DNA of 64,000 nucleotides from Eledone cirrhosa (lineage: Eukaryota). This document shows, piece after piece, positions 2,940-57,925 of the stretch (positions within the stretch are counted from its first letter, which is position 1; each line of letters opens with the position of its first letter). The DNA lies in contig OZ024741.1 of the NCBI GenBank assembly GCA_964016885.1, positions 175,088,001 to 175,152,000 on the forward strand. Direction: 5' to 3'. The translations under genes were made by a program, and so were the position numbers. The notes under the pieces were generated by a model. It had not been told where the DNA came from, made no database searches, and was given only the letters and a program-made list of their open reading frames with translations.

Positions 2940-3026
2940 GGTAAGTTATTCCGGGTTGAATCGGAGGTAACCACAATAAGTAAGGTACTCAATACATAGC
3001 AGAGTATAAAAGTTTTAATATAGAAG

Positions 3027-3077
3027 AAATTCTACAGGACTAGAACTGTTTCATTCGTGAGAAATCATCAGGAATCT
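3027..3077 (-). ncRNA. Type I hammerhead ribozyme (family A)
   Basis: Reverse-complement copy of 3529-3579 with an intact core. Confidence 0.75.
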
Positions 3078-3528
3078 GACTGTCCAAGTAAATATGGTGG
3101 TATTTACACGTATATCTTTTCTGGTGGTAGGAGAGGGTGGGGAGTGGGATGGGTGGAGGTCATTGGTTGAAAGAAAAGGGAATTCATTAAAAGCCATAAT
3201 TTATATTTAGAGTGACAAAGGCAGAAATAATTCTATAAACAAGTTCAAATTGGAGTGCCGCTCCTTATTTTTAAGTTTCTCTTAAGCTAACAATGCCTAT
3301 ATTTCAGGTGCCTATAAGATGGGTGGAGGTCAGTCATGGTTGATGGGTTTAAAGAAAGGGAATTTTTTAAAAGCTAATTCTTTAAAGCTTTACTTAAATT
3401 ATAGCTTTAAAGAATTAGCTTTTAATGAATTCCCTTTTCTTTCAACCAATGACCTCCACCCATCCCACTCCCCACTCTCTCCTACCACCAGGAAAGATAT
3501 AAATACCACCATATTTACTTGGACAGAC

Positions 3529-3579
3529 AGATTCCTGATGATTTCTCACGAATGAAACAGTTCTAGTCCTGTAGAATCT
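3529..3579 (+). ncRNA. Type I hammerhead ribozyme (family A)
   Basis: AGATTC CTGATGA tTTCtcacGAAt GAAA CAG ttctagtc CTG TA GAATCT. Stem I is 6 bp, the cleavage triplet is GUA, and stem II is short. Confidence 0.8.
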
Positions 3580-3594
3580 CTTCTGTATTAAAAC

Positions 3595-3626
<32 letters not shown>

Positions 3627-3756
3627 GAGAGAGAATTAGTACATCTACCAACATATGCGTACAGATGTACACTAATGCTAGCAAATATCTAAGTTATGTC
3701 AAAGTACCTAGGTGGTTCTATGCAGGGGGATGCAGAACAATTATATGAAAGACGTA

Positions 3757-5876
3757 TCATATTATCTGTAGTATTAGGGTTAGTATCATATCTGTAGTAT
3801 TAGGGTTAGTATCATATCTGTAGTATTAGGGTTAGTATCATATCTGTAGTATTAGGGTTAGTATCATATCATCTATAGTATTAGGGTTAGTATCATATTA
3901 TCTGTAGTATTAGGGTTAGTATCATATCATCTGTAGTATTAGGGTTAGTATCATATCATCTGTAGTATTAGGGTTAGTATCATATCTGTAGTATTAGGGT
4001 TAGTATCATATCATCTGTAGTATTAGGGTTATTATCATATCTGTAGTATTAGGGTTAGTATCATATCATCTGTAGTATTAGGGTTAGTATCATATCATCT
4101 GTAGTAGTAGGGTTAGAATCATATCATCTATAGTATTAGGGTTAGTATCATATCATCTGTAGTATTAGGGTTAGTATCATATCTGTAGTATTAGGGTTAG
4201 TATCATATCATCTGTAGTATTAGGGTTAGTATCATATTATCTGTAGTATTAGGGTTAGTATCATATTATCTGTAGTATTAGGGTTAGTATCATATCATCT
4301 GTAGTATTAGGGTTAGTATCATATCTGTAGTATTAGGGTTAGTATCATATCATCTGTAGTATTAGGGTTAGTATCATATCATCTGTAGTATTAGGGTTAG
4401 TATCATATCATCTATAGTATTAGGGTTAGTATCATATCATCTGTAGTATTAGGGTTAGTATCATATCTGTAGTATTAGGGTTAGTATCATATCATCTGTA
4501 GTATTAGGGTTATTATCATATCTGTAGTATTAGGGTTAGTATCATATCATCTGTAGTATTAGGGTTAGTATCATATCATCTGTAGTAGTAGGGTTAGAAT
4601 CATATCATCTATAGTATTAGGGTTAGTATCATATCATCTGTAGTATTAGGGTTAGTATCATATCTGTAGTATTAGGGTTAGTATCATATCATCTGTAGTA
4701 TTAGGGTTAGTATCATATTATCTGTAGTATTAGGGTTAGTATCATATTATCTGTAGTATTAGGGTTAGTATCATATCATCTGTAGTATTAGGGTTAGTAT
4801 CATATCTGTAGTATTAGGGTTAGTATCATATCATCTGTAGTATTAGGGTTAGTATCATATCATCTGTAGTATTAGGGTTAGTATCATATCATCTATAGTA
4901 TTAGGGTTAGTATCATATCATCTGTAGTATTAGGGTTAGTATCATATCTGTAGTATTAGGGTTAGTATCATATCATCTGTAGTATTAGGGTTAGTATCAT
5001 ATCATCTGTAGTATTAGGGTTAGTATCATATCATCTGTAGTATTAGGGTTAGTATCATATCTGTAGTATTAGGGTAGTATCATATCATCTGTAGTATTAG
5101 GGTTAGTATCATATCATCTGTAGTATTAGGGTTAGTATCATATCATCTGTAGTATTAGGGTTAGTATCATATCATCTATAGTATTAGGGTTAGTATCATA
5201 TTATCTGTAGTATTAGGGTTAGTATCATATTATCTGTAGTATTAGGGTTAGTATCATATTATCTGTAGTATTAGGGTTAGTATAATATTATCTGTAGTAT
5301 TAGGGTTAGTATCATATTATCTGTAGTATTAGGGTTAGTATCATATCATTTGTAGTATTAGGGTTAGTATCATATTATCTGTAGTATTAGGGTTAGTATC
5401 ATATCATTTGTAGTATTAGGGTTAGTATCATATCATCTGTAGTATTAGGGTTAGTATCATATCATTTGTAGTATTAGGGTTAGTATCATATCATCTGTAG
5501 TATTAGGGTTAGTATCATATTATCTGTAGTATTAGGGTTAGTATCATATCATCTATAGTATTAGGGTTAGTATCATATCATCTGTAGTATTAGGGTTAGT
5601 ATCATATCATCTATAGTATTAGGGTTAGTATCATATCATTTGTAGTATTAGGGTTAGTATCATATTATCTGTAGTATTAGGGTTAGTATCATATCATCTA
5701 TAGTATTAGGGTTAGTATCATATCATCTGTAGTATTAGGGTTAGTATCATATCATCTGTAGTATTAGGGTTAGTATCATATCATCTGTAGTATTAGGGTT
5801 AGTATCATATCTGTAGTATTAGGGTTAGTATCATATCATCTGTAGTATTAGGGTTAGAATCATATTACCTGTAGTT
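3757..5876 (+). repeat. Tandem satellite of 29/26-bp monomers ATCAT(ATC)ATCTGTAGTATTAGGGTTAGT, about 74 copies, containing telomeric TTAGGGTTAG
   Basis: Directly visible; very homogeneous monomers. Confidence 0.97.
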
Positions 5877-6282
5877 ATTTTACGTCTTTCATATAATTGT
5901 TCTGCATCCCCCTGCATAGAAACACCTAGGTACTTTGACATAACTTATATATTTGCTAGCATTAGTGTACATCTGTACGCATATGTTGGTAGATGTACTA
6001 ATTCTCTATATTTATCTCCAAATTATTTGTTGAGCAAACTTGCCAAATCTACTGCTAATTCATAGTAGTAGTAGTAGGCTCTTGTCATAATACCACCCCA
6101 CTCCTAACTGACTAACCTCAGTGTCACGTGATTGATTCTTTAGAATCTGCCACTGACCAGAGGCAGTGAACTTTTTCTTGCTATGGAATTTAGTCCTCGC
6201 TAGCTTATTACATCCACTGAATTATTATTTTTATATGGGTTCCTAGTGTCCGCGCATTGCCTGGGAACTTAGCTGAGAATAG

Positions 6283-6364
6283 ACTCCCTGATGACGTAAT
6301 GAATTCTCGATAGTTATATTGTGTAACTATATTTATCCCATTACAGAAACTAATTAGTTGGAGT
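6283..6364 (+). ncRNA. Type I hammerhead with 51-nt stem II region and palindromic stem III
   Basis: ACTCC CTGATGA c GTAATG..[TAGTTA/TAACTA hairpin]..CATTAC a GAAA CTAATTAG TT GGAGT. Confidence 0.75.
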
Positions 6365-6583
6365 GAACATTTTAGTAAGTAAGTTAATTTTTAATTTTTA
6401 AAATTTTCTTATTTTACGTCTTTCATATATATATATATATATATATGAAAGACGTAAAATAAGAAAATTTTAAAAATTAAAAATTAACTTACTAAAATTT
6501 TCACTCCAACTAATTAGTTTCTGTAATGGGATAAATATAGTTACACAATATAACTATATATATATATATATAGTTACACAATA

Positions 6584-6635
<52 letters not shown>

Positions 6636-6641
<6 letters not shown>

Positions 6642-6833
6642 CAAAATTTAATATAGAAATGGGTTTGACAGGACTAGAACTGTTTCATTCGAAAGAAATC
6701 ATCGAGCTTTCCGGATGATTTCTTTCGAATGAAACAGTTCTAGTACTGAAGAAGCCATTTCTATATTAAATTTTGTATATACTCTACTAATGTATTTAGT
6801 ACGTCACTTACTGTGGCCACCCCCGATTGAATC

Positions 6834-6836
<3 letters not shown>
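6636..6836. mobile_element. Family A pseudo-LTR palindrome with mutated hammerhead cores
   Basis: 6636-6702 is inverted at 6715-6780. The core reads CGGATGA. It carries the family tail CCCCGATTGAATCCG. Confidence 0.7.
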
Positions 6837-6873
<37 letters not shown>

Positions 6874-42953: not shown

Positions 42954-44837
42954 CTACATTTTAAATTTAAATTTATATTTAAACGTTGAGTTCAATCTAT
43001 GTCTGCAGCAACTGAATAAATTTGTCCGTAGATTAAGGGAATTTTTAGATTTTAGTATAAAGAATATCTCCTCCGCACAGAGGTCACATGTCTCAGAGGA
43101 TGAATTAAAAGGAATCCCCCTTGAGACTATATTCCAAGTCGTCGAATATCTAACGTTATCATGCCTAAGTTGCCAGAGTACGCCTGATAGTGCTGTTGAA
43201 GATTTTTTGGATGGATCTGTGAAAGAATTCTTGTGGTTGTTATAGCGAAGTTTAAATTCCGTCGATGTAGAACCAACGTAGTTAAAAGAATTAACGTCCG
43301 TTTTAACATTACAGTTGTATATTATATTTTTAACTAAGCAGTTGTTATTTAACGGACATTTAGATCTATCTCTACAGTTACATTTGTTAACTTGGATATT
43401 ATTTATGCTATTATCGCTAGGTTTTAAGTTCCTGTTATTTATTCTATTAATATTTTGCGCTAAATTTTTGGTGGATGAGTAGGTTAGTTTTACAGTATGT
43501 CTATTGAAAATTGAGTGATACCTATGTGTTCTAGGGAAGCGATTATCGAGAGCTTTAAAAAATAGTTTAGCAATGTGGGTTTTAATGTTTAGTGAGAAAG
43601 GGGGGGGGGGGGCAAACCATATTATATTCCTAGTTCTATTTCTTTTATGGCTTTTGGAATTATTGTAATGCTTTCTATTATAGTTGTTAAGGTTGTGGCC
43701 ATAATTAAAATAGTTGTTATTTTGTTTAATTTGTTTATCATTATCTATGTACATAATTTTATCACTATATCCTGCTCTAGCTAACGCTTCATTGTAATAA
43801 TGGGCTTTTTCGTCGAAAATCTTTTTATTAGATGAGATTTTAGAGATACGTGATTGAACAGAGTTTACTATAGTATTTTTAACAGATTTGGGGTGGTTAG
43901 AGTTAAAGCTGACATAGTTTAAGTTTTCATTCAACTTGTGAAATGGATAGTGAAGACATGTGTTGAGATTTAATGTTATATCTAGGAAGTTGACTATTCT
44001 ATGGTTATTCTCAATTTCTATTTTTAGATTAAAGTGATTAAAAAATTGTGTAATTTGTTTTCTTTTTCTATTTAGTTCAGAGTTATTATTATCAATAAGT
44101 AAAAGCATGTCATCTCTATATAAACCTCCGGTAGTACCAGGTATTTTCCTATGCAGCGAATTGATTAAAAATAAGCCCACAAGGTCAGTTACCTGAGCTG
44201 AGTCGGATGATCCCATAGTAATGTCAAAATTGTTATCTCTATCTGCTCGGGTCCATAGTTGGTCATTAAATTCTATCAATGTTTTCCTAGCCGATAATAT
44301 AATGTGCATTTCATTGCTAGTTAGGTCTGTATGTTTGAATGCGTAATTTAGTGCCTTATTTAGTAGATTAGGGGTAATGGAAGAATAATAGTTAGCAATA
44401 TCAAGTTGAATAAACTTATTATTATTGTTATATTTAATTTGCTTAAACCACTCAACAACCTCTCCAGTTCCCTTCCACAAGCTCAGGTTAGGTAAACAAC
44501 TCAAGTTTTTAATTTGCTGTATCACCCTGTCAAGAATGTTTTTGCTTAGTTTACCCAGGTCCGATTTTGATGGTGCAATCAATCTGACTGGCAAGTCATT
44601 CTCGAAATTTCTCTTATGATCTTTCATATTGATCTTCGGTTTCCTGGGCACGAAAGGTTGTGTTCTGTTCCCGATTTCCAACTCGTGCATTATACAAGAT
44701 GCCTCAACATTCATTTTCTCTAGCTCGGCCTTATCTGCTACCTTGTACTTTTTCCTCAGTTCTTTTAGTATGAGGCCATTATACATGTCTTTCTGCACTC
44801 CATAGAGTATATATATATATGTAGATAAATCTACCAA
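42954..44837 (-). CDS. Penelope-like element polyprotein (RT plus GIY-YIG endonuclease, Neptune-like), uninterrupted but probably 5'-truncated
   Basis: 627-aa ORF with FIQLDIANYYSSI, MGSSDSAQV, LYRDD, FLDITL, Cys linker CNCR..CPL..C, IIY..YVGST..FKLRYNNH, CDLC and CRH. The first ~10 aa derive from flank and (TA)n. Confidence 0.93.
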   Translation of the reverse strand: MVDLSTYIYILYGVQKDMYNGLILKELRKKYKVADKAELEKMNVEASCIMHELEIGNRTQPFVPRKPKINMKDHKRNFENDLPVRLIAPSKSDLGKLSKNILDRVIQQIKNLSCLPNLSLWKGTGEVVEWFKQIKYNNNNKFIQLDIANYYSSITPNLLNKALNYAFKHTDLTSNEMHIILSARKTLIEFNDQLWTRADRDNNFDITMGSSDSAQVTDLVGLFLINSLHRKIPGTTGGLYRDDMLLLIDNNNSELNRKRKQITQFFNHFNLKIEIENNHRIVNFLDITLNLNTCLHYPFHKLNENLNYVSFNSNHPKSVKNTIVNSVQSRISKISSNKKIFDEKAHYYNEALARAGYSDKIMYIDNDKQIKQNNNYFNYGHNLNNYNRKHYNNSKSHKRNRTRNIIWFAPPPPFSLNIKTHIAKLFFKALDNRFPRTHRYHSIFNRHTVKLTYSSTKNLAQNINRINNRNLKPSDNSINNIQVNKCNCRDRSKCPLNNNCLVKNIIYNCNVKTDVNSFNYVGSTSTEFKLRYNNHKNSFTDPSKKSSTALSGVLWQLRHDNVRYSTTWNIVSRGIPFNSSSETCDLCAEEIFFILKSKNSLNLRTNLFSCCRHRLNSTFKYKFKFKM

Positions 44838-45002: not shown

Positions 45003-45141
45003 TCATCATTTTACGATCGTTTCTAGGATATATATGTTAGTGTTGGTATGCATATCCTATAGATCTATGTAAAATTTTTACAAACTATCAGAGGGAATAT
45101 ACATACCTACACATATATATGCTGTCTTCAGAAATAATGAT
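45003..45141 (-). ncRNA. Type I hammerhead with 101-nt stem II region
   Basis: TCATTATTT CTGAAGA c AG c ATATATATGT..ACATATATAT c CT a GAAA CGATCG TA AAATGATGA. Confidence 0.72.
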
Positions 45142-45653
45142 ATTTGTTTATTGAAAAAACCCAACAAAGATTTAATACAATAGGTATGTTTGGGAACAGG
45201 TTTTGAATTGACCAATAGAAAGATAGTGAAGGTCAAGATGGTAAAATAGTAGTAAAAGAACCTTAATTTATGGGTATAGGAAGGTAGATTTCAGTTTTGG
45301 ATGGAAAGAATATTATGAATGAAAGATTATTTTAGGGATGAAAATAGGTCATATGCTGACCTCAGAAATAATTATATTTGTTCATTGAATAAAACCAACA
45401 AAGATTTAATATAGTAGGTCTGTTTGGGAACAGGTTTTGAATTGACCAATAGAAGGTTATAATTGGCCAAATGGTAAAATAGTAGTAATGGAAGTTTATT
45501 TTAGGGGTAGAAGAAGGCAGATTTCAGTCTTGAATGGAAGGAGTGTGAAGAATGAAAAGATTATTCTAGGGGTGAAAATAGGTCAGGTCAGTAAAAGGTA
45601 CACGAAAAGTTGCTGTTATAAAAGAATAATGCCAGTGTAAATATCTAACCTTT

Positions 45654-46752
45654 CGTCTAACCAGTATGTATTTATAACGAAGCTTTAGCTAGAAGTGGTC
45701 ACAAAAATAAATTAATATATGTACCTTGTACCAATAACACTACAAACATACAACCTAATATTACCAACAAACACCAAATGAAACATACACACCTAAATGC
45801 CACTCACACTATACCCCAAAATACCAACATAAAACCAAATTTCTCTAATATACAATATAGTAACTCTCAAAAAACTATTCATCCTACAACTCTAATAAAT
45901 GTTAATAATAAAACACCTAATAAACAAGCTAAAACACCTAAATCAATAAATCTAACTAAAAATGTGTGTGGTGAGGTCATTAACAATAATTCTCTTAATA
46001 AACATCAGGATACATCCTATAAAAACAATAAACAACATCGAAACCGTAATAGACGAGTTACTTGGTATAATGCTCCATTTAATTTACAAATTAAGGATAA
46101 TATACCTAAAAAATTTTTTAATATCCTAGAGAAGAACTTCCCGCCAAACCACAAATACCATCAAATTTTAAATAGATCAACGGTTAAATTCTCCTACTCA
46201 ACAACCCAAAACATAAAACAAAATATAAGTGCCTACAATGCATATAAATGTAAAAAAAACCATGAATATACCACCAGTACATCAAACTAACCATAATATC
46301 TCCTCTGATACAGGATTCACGAAAAGTTGTAACTGTAGAAACAAAGCAAACTGCCCATTAAAAGGAAATTGCCTTGTTAATAACATAGTATATAAATGTA
46401 AAGTTAACACTAAGGACTCAATTTATTCATATATAGGAGCTACCTCTAACCAATTTAAAGTAAGATTCAATACCCACAAACATAGTTTTAAAAATGCCGC
46501 ATTAGCTAATACAACATCTCTAGCTGAAATAATTAATAATTATAGAAAGAGGAATATAGATTATGACCTGACCTGGAGTGTGCTCAAAATGGCCACCCCT
46601 TATCAAAATAATAGATATGAATGTAGATTGTGTTCCTAAGAACTTTTTGAAATAATGAAATCTAAGGATATCCTATTAAATAAGCGACAGGAATTAATAA
46701 TATCGTGTAATCATAAACTGAGAAAAACCTTTAAATATTATAAACCTAATTA
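45654..46752 (+). pseudogene. Neptune-like thumb/linker/GIY-YIG remnant (frameshift plus stop)
   Basis: YNEALARSG..RNRNRRVTWYNAPF..HKYHQILNRSTVKFSYS, then CNCRNKANCPLKGNC..IVY..YIGAT..FKVRFNTH..CRLC. Confidence 0.9.
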
Positions 46753-46983
46753 ATATACATTTTAGAAATTAATATAAAAACTTTTTTATTTTAGTTAACC
46801 TATAATTAATATTCTACTACTGATGAACTACATAATTTTACTTTCCTTCTTACAACTATCTTTTCCTAAAATTGATATCATTAAGTAAACATATATAATG
46901 TTTTAATTTCAGGTTATGATTCTATGTTCCTTGAAATCTCTATATATTTATTATTTCTCACTAATAAATTTAACCCCCTCCAA

Positions 46984-47018
<35 letters not shown>

Positions 47019-48167
47019 TTTTTATATTTTTTTAATTCCCCCTCGTCTTTAATAGCACTCTTCAATTACATCTAACTCTTATTTATCATATCTATATGCA
47101 TTAATATAATTCTATCAATATAAATATACCCATCAATTAAATTAATTTATATTCTTTTCATAGATGTAAATTCCATATATTTTTTTCACTAACACTTTTA
47201 TCGTAAAATTTTAGTCTCCTTAGATATTTACACTGGCATTATTCTTTTATAACAGCAACTTTTCGTGTACCTTTTACTGACCTGACCTATTTTCACCCCT
47301 AGAATAACCTTTTCATTCTTCATACTCCTTCCATTCAAAACTGAAATCTGCCTTCTTCTACCCCTAAAATAAACTTCCATTACTACTATTTTACCATTTG
47401 GCCAATTATAACCTTCTATTGGTCAATTCAAAACCTGTTCCCAAACAGACCTACTATATTAAATCTTTGTTGGTTTTATTCAATGAACAAATATAATTAT
47501 TTCTGAGGTCAGCATATGACCTATTTTCATCCTTAAAATAATCTTTCATTCATAATATTCTTTCCATCCAAAACTGAAATCTACCTTCCTATACCCATAA
47601 ATTAAGGTTCTTTTACTACTATTTTACCATCTTGACCTTCACTATCTTTCTATTGGTCAATTCAAAACCTGTTCCCAAACAGACCTATTGTATTAAATCT
47701 TTGTTGGTTTTTTTCAATAAACAAATATCATTATTTCTAATCCCGCCGAGGTTGACTTTGTCTTTCATCCTTACGGGGTCGATAAAATAAAGTACCAGTA
47801 ATGCACTAGATAATTGCTGGCCTTGTGCCTAAAGTAGAAACAATTATTTTTGAAGACAGCATATATATGTGTAGGTATGTATATTCCCTCTGATAGTTTG
47901 TAAAAATTTTACATAGATCTATAGGATATGCATACCAACACTAACATATATATCCTAGAAACGATCGTAAAATGATGAATTTTTTAATATAAGGAACTGT
48001 TTCTTTGTTTATTCATTATTTTATTAATTTATATATATATATATATATATCAACCTCTACTGCCATCACTACCCATCATTGTCACCACTATCATCATCAT
48101 TACATTCTTCCAATAAGATAGGGAAAAGTGGCCATCTTGGAGTCATGCCATCAGAGAGAGAGAGAGA

Positions 48168-57625: not shown

Positions 57626-57925
57626 GTGAAGGCTAAAAGATTCCGTTAAGGATCAAAGCAGCGATTCTTTGCTTAAACTTAAATCTGTTCTTATAATATA
57701 TATATATATATATATATATAACGAAGGAAATGTGGTAAGGAACCAGATGGACCATAACACACCAAAGTACTCAATACTTAGGGTAGTAGAGTTAGCACTC
57801 CCCTTGACAAGGATGGAAGAGATCATATGGTCTTTCTAACACATATGGGCATTGCTCTGCTACTTCAGAGCAACATATTTTTGGAGTACTACTCGTTCCT
57901 ATATATATATATATGTATATATATA

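What the first reader, a model, noticed from the sequence alone, without database searches (positions are those of the whole stretch)
3630..6430. Telomere-motif satellite enclosed by Penelope-type inverted pseudo-LTR arms with a hammerhead
Seen: about 74 monomers, each containing TTAGGGTTAG, fill the space between 127-bp inverted arms (2 mismatches, so young). The right arm continues into a terminally redundant unit with a hammerhead on the same strand as the G-rich repeat. Known: Penelope insertions often have an inverted partial pseudo-LTR at the 5' end, PLE RT is the sister group of telomerase RT, and some PLEs associate with telomeric repeats. Inference: either a PLE mobilised a (sub)telomeric satellite as cargo, or the array arose by iterative copying of a short template during insertion. 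A later ordinary satellite expansion is also possible.
Basis: partly seen in the sequence, partly recalled or inferred. Interest (0 to 1): 0.72.

Follow-up and report, generated by a model that had tools for sequence, protein, structure and literature searches.

The report
Retrozyme seam captured a distant minisatellite
A 29-base repeat found at only one other, mid-chromosome place in this animal genome fills the seam between the two back-to-back halves of a small mobile element carrying a predicted ribozyme, where it was likely copied in once by repair and then expanded; its telomere-like motif shows no link to chromosome ends in this assembly.

Summary
In detail: 74 monomers (3757-5874) lie between 127-bp inverted arms, and the right arm runs into a 535-bp unit with a type I hammerhead motif. 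The telomere-cargo reading is not supported. The unit belongs to a young, non-coding, (AT)n-targeting retrozyme family (at least 1,859 insertion ends) that inserts back-to-back with Penelope-type ends. Five other loci have the same arms with no satellite. The monomer occurs at exactly two places in the 3-Gb assembly: here (175 Mb into a 416-Mb contig) and a 40-copy array on C14 with no element beside it. No family end abuts telomeric repeats. Best reading: a one-off capture of several C14 monomers at the central seam by templated end-joining, then local expansion (a 481-bp perfect duplication). Capture at insertion is put at 0.47, and at a later break in the palindrome centre at 0.27. Seams of this family show other templated fillers, local flank copies and one foreign Penelope arm. 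Host DNA capture by Penelope elements is known, and this scan had already noted the two-armed architecture in other families of this genome. No read contig bridges the junctions (inconclusive).

The parts
3595..3629 (.). (AT)n/(AG)n target microsatellite, left side of the insertion
   Evidence: family ends lie in (AT)n
3630..3756 (-). Short left arm of the two-armed retrozyme insertion (= 5881-6007); its outer end is the family's fixed 3' end B
   Evidence: end B at 6005-6020 in 59 of 109 arms
3757..5874 (+). Captured and expanded 29/26-bp minisatellite, 74 monomers, 2,118 bp, in the head-to-head seam; 3-nt microhomology (GTA) at the left junction, imperfect TATT match at the right junction, two changes in the last monomer
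3934..4993 (+). Higher-order duplication inside the array: 579 identical bases at period 481
5875..6430 (+). Long right arm: one 535-bp non-coding unit plus about 20 bp of redundancy; outer end is the family's fixed 3' end A
6283..6364 (+). Type I hammerhead motif with palindromic stem III; predicted cut after 6359
6431..6440 (.). (AT)n target microsatellite, right side
6441..6557 (-). Separate 5'-truncated insertion of the same family (= 6310-6430), tail-to-tail in the same (AT)n

Best explanation
The satellite fills the central seam of one back-to-back insertion of a non-coding hammerhead retroelement and matches a 40-copy minisatellite on contig C14, from which several monomers were likely copied once, by templated end-joining as the insertion was sealed, and then likely expanded in place. 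Shown: the family inserts into (AT)n with two arms that end at two fixed points (A and B); the same arms occur elsewhere without any satellite; the monomer is confined to two loci. Inferred: a Penelope-type RT/GIY-YIG enzyme acting in trans primed cDNA on both sides of a cut in the (AT)n; the two free cDNA ends had to be joined; one end paired through 3-5 bases with C14 DNA or a transcript of it, copied at least three monomers and was ligated to the other arm. Slippage and unequal exchange then took the array to 74 copies. The TTAGGGTTAG motif is a passenger: one TTAGGG hexamer between two TAGTAT-like hexamers.
For: Family: 718 exact hammerhead 19-mers and 1,859 exact A-ends running into (AT)n. 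Of 37 head-to-head seams in 68 loci, 29 pair end A with end B, 0 pair A-A or B-B, and 8 have one non-canonical end. The window is A+B. Satellite-free twins with a 553-568 nt A arm and a 143-154 nt B arm: L084, L087, L089, L093, L095. Genome-wide monomer counts equal window plus C14 exactly for three patterns (54+28, 71+39, 67+34). C14's 75-nt left flank is single-copy, and no unit or PLE hit lies in the 30 kb around it. The C14 array begins and ends in register between short repeats, whereas the window array starts and stops mid-monomer on microhomology. Two variant monomers are shared (chance about 0.07). Seams take up templated DNA: fillers of 15, 17 and 35 nt and 12 nt (L115); 4 of 20 single-armed copies have a 72-432 nt copy of nearby flank at the 5' junction; L133 joins a unit arm head-to-head to a truncated RT/GIY-YIG Penelope-type ORF. 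Precedent: host DNA captured between Penelope pLTRs (PMC3846280, passages) and extra templates at L1 inversion junctions (PMC11702581, section 7).
Against: It is a single event: the other 37 seams have gaps of -21 to +35 nt and none holds distant DNA of this size, and 20 single-armed loci extended to about 10 kb showed no far partner arm enclosing cargo. The arms' inner ends lie 6 nt apart. That symmetry marks the fold-back class (4 of 27 unselected seams against 0.66 expected, p=0.004) and fits a later break at least as well. Direction C14 to C2 is inferred from flanks only; the window array is longer and has more private variants than C14. No autonomous partner sharing the unit's sequence was found. 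No TSD can be read in (AT)n.
Confidence: 0.47

Rival explanations
1. Same donor, later timing. The insertion first formed a spacer-less AT-rich palindrome of the recurrent fold-back class. It later broke at its centre, lost a few bases on each side and was repaired by copying C14 monomers; the spacer then stabilised it.
For: Inner ends at 5875 and 5881, 6 nt apart. A fold-back class centred on 6386-5879 exists at 19 distinct loci (25 pattern hits), with overlaps or gaps of -21 to +8. Spacer-less palindromes are break-prone (PMC7999016, passages). Templated insertions at breaks come from genome-wide donors (10.1101/2022.09.30.509517, abstract).
Against: Many spacer-less palindromes of this family persist intact. 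Symmetric ends also follow if both cDNAs ran to the hammerhead-cut RNA end about 50 nt further on and were trimmed alike: 10 of 47 5' ends fall at 6360-6373.
Confidence: 0.27
2. Assembly artefact: C14 array reads were joined into a palindromic repeat copy.
For: Palindrome plus tandem array is hard to assemble, and raw-read support could not be obtained here.
Against: The window array is not a copy of the assembled C14 array: the longest shared exact stretch is 142 bp, and it has 7 private monomer types among its internal monomers (27 of 73) and its own 481-bp duplication. The arms follow the family's A+B rule, and the junctions sit on microhomology.
Confidence: 0.07
3. Reverse direction or third donor: the monomer was born in the seam and exported to C14, or both arrays come from an array missing from the assembly.
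For: The window array is longer and more varied. Assemblies lose satellites.
Against: The monomer does not align to the unit or to local flanks better than shuffles (p=0.63 and 0.91). C14 edges look like in-place duplication. Counts leave no third locus in the assembly.
Confidence: 0.12
4. Telomere-linked mechanism: a telomerase-related PLE RT is drawn to TTAGGG-bearing templates, and carried or iteratively copied a telomere-derived unit.
For: The 10-mer is one and two-thirds telomeric repeats; chance per 29-bp unit is about 6e-5. C14 has a second TTAGGG just upstream of the array. (TTAGGG)10 is abundant in this genome (35,072 overlapping hits).
Against: Both loci are interstitial (175 Mb of 416 Mb; 11.3 Mb of 46.3 Mb). 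There are 0 A-ends and 0 B-ends within 20-25 nt of CCCTAACCCT against 1,859 A-ends in (AT)n. The unit has no TTAGGG on either strand. No single-copy locus carries the 18-mer, as a telomerase-RNA-type template would. At about 25 complex minisatellites per 323 kb (a biased sample), of order ten arrays with this 10-mer are expected by chance in 3 Gb.
Confidence: 0.05

Closest known systems
Metazoan non-LTR retrozymes (PMC7229834, passages; 10.64898/2026.07.22.740005, part 1 of 5)
   Same: Non-coding unit with a type I hammerhead motif, dispersed and in short tandems, proposed to be moved by Penelope-like elements.
   Different: Unit of 535 bp against the 150-450 bp quoted; RNA not shown here; this copy holds a foreign minisatellite in its seam.
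EN+ Penelope-like element insertions (PMC8557442, passages; PMC11167929, main text)
   Same: Inverted 5'-truncated copy at the 5' end, partial tandems, AT-rich/microsatellite targets, two fixed RT start points.
   Different: No ORF. The two 3' ends are about 112-123 nt apart rather than a 30-40 bp tail. 5' ends cluster at the hammerhead cut, whereas the anole study found no RNA reads ending there.
Host DNA capture by Adineta vaga Penelope elements (PMC3846280, passages)
   Same: Unrelated host sequence framed by pLTR-type repeats.
   Different: There the cargo lies between direct pLTRs or before the 3' pLTR, with TSDs. Here it lies in the head-to-head seam, is a minisatellite, has an identifiable donor on another contig, and has expanded.
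Extra templates at L1 twin-priming junctions and templated insertions at breaks (PMC11702581, passages and section 7; 10.1101/2022.09.30.509517, abstract)
   Same: Two extended DNA ends joined by microhomology with additional cDNA or genomic DNA between them.
   Different: A germline, invertebrate, Penelope-type event read from one assembly, not an experiment.
Telomeric EN- PLEs Athena/Coprina (PMC8557442, passage)
   Same: Hammerhead motif near a telomere-like sequence.
   Different: Not at chromosome ends, not attached to telomeric repeats, no telomeric stretch in the unit.

Membership tests
Metazoan non-LTR retrozyme | Type I hammerhead motif in the unit | tested here: met
   Core, stems I-III at 6283-6364. 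Double-sided stem II changes in L002/L153, L007, L012 among 58 distinct motif sequences picked by a core pattern, so core conservation is by construction. Rfam gave no hammerhead hit.
Metazoan non-LTR retrozyme | Non-coding unit in tandem and dispersed copies, no ORF | tested here: met
   Longest stop-to-stop frame overlapping 3600-6600 is 83 aa; five motifs at 540-bp spacing at C1:199063907-199066085.
Metazoan non-LTR retrozyme | Expressed as self-cleaved linear and circular RNA | not testable with these tools
   No RNA holder listed. Genomic proxy only: 10 of 47 5' ends at 6360-6373 in the best-hit set (expected 1.2); 3 of 32 in a set biased against it.
EN+ Penelope-type insertion | Inverted 5'-truncated copy joined head-to-head | tested here: met
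   Window, and 26 of 49 unselected loci.
EN+ Penelope-type insertion | 30-40 bp tail at one end only (two RT start points) | tested here: inconclusive
   Two fixed ends, paired A+B in 29 of 37 seams and never A-A or B-B, but 112-123 nt apart.
EN+ Penelope-type insertion | AT-rich or microsatellite target | tested here: met
   1,859 exact A-ends in (AT)n.
Autonomous Penelope-like element | RT plus GIY-YIG ORF between pLTRs | tested here: not met
   No ORF at this locus. PLE-type ORFs near family copies share no sequence with the unit in the two loci tested.
Telomeric EN- PLE (Athena/Coprina/Terminon) | Located at or near chromosome termini | tested here: not met
   175 Mb into a 416-Mb contig.
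Telomeric EN- PLE (Athena/Coprina/Terminon) | 3' end joined to telomeric repeats; reverse-complement telomeric stretches in the element | tested here: not met
   0 hits for either end next to CCCTAACCCT; no TTAGGG on either strand of the unit.
Interstitial telomeric sequence | Tandem (TTAGGG)n | tested here: not met
   One hexamer plus TTAG per 26-29 bp; a true degenerate interstitial array elsewhere looks different (L135).

The most novel reading that the evidence does not exclude
The telomerase-related Penelope reverse transcriptase jumped from the retrozyme RNA onto a transcript of the TTAGGGTTAG-bearing C14 repeat and re-copied it many times in one reaction: a vestige of telomerase-like repeat addition that seeded a new satellite on another chromosome. 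The window array's private variants (four transversions, two deletions; none of C14's substitution variants is a transversion) would be RT errors.
Probability: 0.06. Interest if true: 0.75.

Novelty: new member of a known kind. Interest (0 to 1): 0.32.

Why it matters
It is a clean natural case of a minisatellite moving between chromosomes through the seam of a Penelope-type insertion, with donor and recipient both identifiable. It suggests that the two-ended joining step of these elements can seed new satellite arrays. The family data (strict A+B pairing, 5' ends at the predicted ribozyme cut, one arm from a different element) bear on how Penelope inverted ends form. It does not link Penelope elements to telomeres.

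Tried and rejected
Reads: the best listed holder shares 0.31 of sampled words, and no RNA holder was listed. Logan contigs of one sample (X1-X3) hold the monomer, but none covers 5866-5874, and no piece bridging the right junction was listed; RAD reads of another sample (X21) lay only on the arm. At the left junction no bridging piece was listed, and no laid contig showed the window's private base at 3689. The tool warns that such holes prove nothing, and the sample need not be the assembled animal, so this is inconclusive. Weak hits on C17, C5 and C10 are unrelated 35-, 23- and 28-bp minisatellites. A telomerase-RNA-type single template was rejected: no third 18-mer locus; the other half of the motif was not searched genome-wide on its own. 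Origin of the monomer from the unit or local flanks was rejected. Pfam gave no family for the L133 protein pieces; the RT/GIY-YIG label and Neptune-like linker are read by eye from recalled motifs and PMC8557442, and no tree was built. The first tblastn used a wrong frame for one piece and was redone. Rows dropped before the counts: 16 of 84 loci as overlaps or duplicates; L115 was dropped by mistake and is one more A+B seam with a 12-nt filler. Arms under 30 nt were filtered, so only 10 of 19 fold-back loci were scored as pairs. One search found local flank copies in 6 of 23 single-armed loci; the stricter test on 20 of them kept 4. The ORF listing and the tail were cut in view. Seven paper searches (listings only) showed no report of minisatellite capture in a Penelope or retrozyme inversion seam; subscription papers and all supplements were not seen. 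Earlier-findings look-ups by sequence, by words and near the locus were blank.

Full report
Observation. The array (3757-5874, 74 monomers, 69 with TTAGGGTTAG), the 127-bp arms with two mismatches, the terminal redundancy and the + strand hammerhead motif are all present. The window lies at G000:C2:175088001-175152000 in a 3.0-Gb assembly, on a 416-Mb contig, far from either end.

The arms. The stretch 5875-6409 is the 535-bp unit of a young, abundant, non-coding family. The first look found 2,982 candidates, with best copies 95-98% identical; there are 718 exact hammerhead 19-mers and 1,859 exact ends running into (AT)n. It has no long ORF. Its 3' ends fall at two fixed points, A (6430) and B (6007-6018). 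In 68 loci (84 fetched, 16 dropped as overlaps or duplicates, one of them by mistake), 37 head-to-head seams were scored: 29 pair A with B, none pairs A-A or B-B, and 8 have one other end. The window is an ordinary A+B insertion. Five loci have practically the same two arms and no satellite (L084, L087, L089, L093, L095). The satellite is therefore not part of the element. Inverted 5'-truncated copies, a one-sided tail and microsatellite bias are the published marks of endonuclease-bearing Penelope-like elements (PMC8557442, abstract and passages), and two internal RT start sites were shown in vitro for an anole element (PMC11167929, parts 1-2 of 4). Non-coding hammerhead tandems of this kind are non-LTR retrozymes (PMC7229834, passages; 10.64898/2026.07.22.740005, part 1 of 5). 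Earlier notes of this scan describe the same two-armed form in other families of this genome; I had measured it here before that look-up, and those notes are not independent support.

The hammerhead. Stem I (6283-6287 with 6360-6364), the core, a long stem II and a palindromic stem III predict a cut after 6359. Older copies keep stem II by changes on both sides. In the best-hit set 10 of 47 5' ends fall at 6360-6373 against 1.2 expected, with only 2 in the next 36 bases. In a set chosen for an intact motif, and so biased against this, 3 of 32 do. This suggests that cut RNA serves as template in vivo; cleavage itself was not tested, and Rfam does not call the motif.

The satellite. Three patterns give genome-wide counts that equal the window array plus one array at C14:11296353-11297516 exactly (54+28, 71+39, 67+34). 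The C14 array has 40 monomers and lies 11.3 Mb into a 46.3-Mb contig. [quoted passage not shown] It begins and ends in register between short repeats, as an array born in place would. The window array starts and stops mid-monomer, on a 3-nt and an imperfect 4-nt match to the arms. The two arrays share the main monomer and two variants (chance about 0.07), so several monomers probably moved. The window array also has seven private types and a perfect 481-bp duplication, so it changed and grew after or during arrival and is not a simple copy of C14.

Telomere link. (TTAGGG)10 is abundant in the assembly (35,072 overlapping hits; the 100 listed are an interstitial array on C1), so the hexamer is plausibly this animal's telomere repeat (general knowledge; not shown at contig ends). 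But neither family end lies next to CCCTAA repeats (0 and 0), the unit has no TTAGGG, and both satellite loci are interstitial. The monomer reads as TAGTAT-TAGGGT-TAGTAT plus 11 bases. A rough count suggests that of order ten minisatellites with this 10-mer would arise by chance in 3 Gb (biased sample). A short telomerase-made seed at C14 cannot be excluded, since a second TTAGGG lies just upstream, but that would not involve the element.

Mechanism. Shown: the anatomy and counts above. Inferred: a Penelope-type enzyme in trans extends both sides of a cut in (AT)n from RNA points A and B, and the two cDNA ends are sealed by microhomology-type joining. The family shows that this step is permissive. 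Seam gaps run from -21 to +35 nt, with fillers of 12-35 nt. Four of 20 single-armed copies carry a 72-432 nt copy of nearby flank at their 5' junction. In L133 the second arm is a truncated, frameshifted RT/GIY-YIG element unrelated in sequence to the unit (label by eye, Pfam blank). The window would be the distant-donor version. The chief rival puts the same capture later, at a break in the centre of a spacer-less palindrome: the inner ends are 6 nt apart, a symmetry seen in 4 of 27 unselected seams (p=0.004), and a fold-back class exists at this very position (19 loci). Together the two timings carry about 0.74.

Against. It is one event. No other seam or extended single-armed locus showed long distant cargo. 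Direction rests on flanks. The partner enzyme is unidentified. Read evidence for the junctions could not be obtained (see Tried and rejected).

Comparison. Capture of unrelated host DNA by Penelope repeats is published for a rotifer (PMC3846280, passages). Extra templates at inversion junctions are published for L1 (PMC11702581, passages and section 7; PMC13174262, abstract only), and genome-wide templated insertions at breaks are published too (10.1101/2022.09.30.509517, abstract only). Seven searches showed no listing of a minisatellite captured in a Penelope or retrozyme seam; supplements and subscription papers were not seen. Verdict: a new member of a known kind with one unusual, well-traceable capture; interest 0.32.

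Noticed in passing
L133:2531-5352 (G000:C1:110.737-110.740 Mb): Chimeric two-armed insertion: one arm is the hammerhead unit, the other a 5'-truncated RT/GIY-YIG Penelope-type element with its own 3' end in (AT)n, so the two arms came from different RNAs.
   Followed up: partly
family loci L002-L030: 5' ends cluster at the predicted hammerhead cut (10 of 47 within 14 nt; two arms of L019 both start at 6360), genomic evidence for use of cleaved RNA in vivo.
   Followed up: partly
L146, L139, L148, L149: Single-armed copies carry direct or inverted copies (432, 103, 297 inverted, 72 nt) of nearby host flank at their 5' junction.
   Followed up: partly
window 2946-3595 and 6600-6870: A second hammerhead-motif family forms a fold-back insertion (3011-3201 inverted with 3413-3595; motifs at 3535 + and 3071 -) in the same microsatellite cluster.
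   Followed up: no
window 42984-44420 (-) and 45130-47738: Penelope-type RT/endonuclease remnants (38-50% identity to the L133 protein); one piece at 46030-46747 lies between 519-bp inverted arms made of 234-bp units.
   Followed up: no
window 57781-57882 (+): U6atac snRNA match (58 bits) with deletions, probably a pseudogene or variant.
   Followed up: no
G000:C1:217.86-218.01 Mb (L135): Large interstitial degenerate (TTAGGG)n array with higher-order repeats near the middle of the 443-Mb contig; possible fusion relic or centromere-type satellite.
   Followed up: partly
window from about 7040 onward (-): Non-LTR retrotransposon remnant (RTE-like by eye) beside the locus.
   Followed up: no
L061:5508-5530: A second TTAGGG sits 2 nt upstream of the first C14 monomer; either an 8-nt duplication or a tiny telomerase-made seed.
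   Followed up: partly
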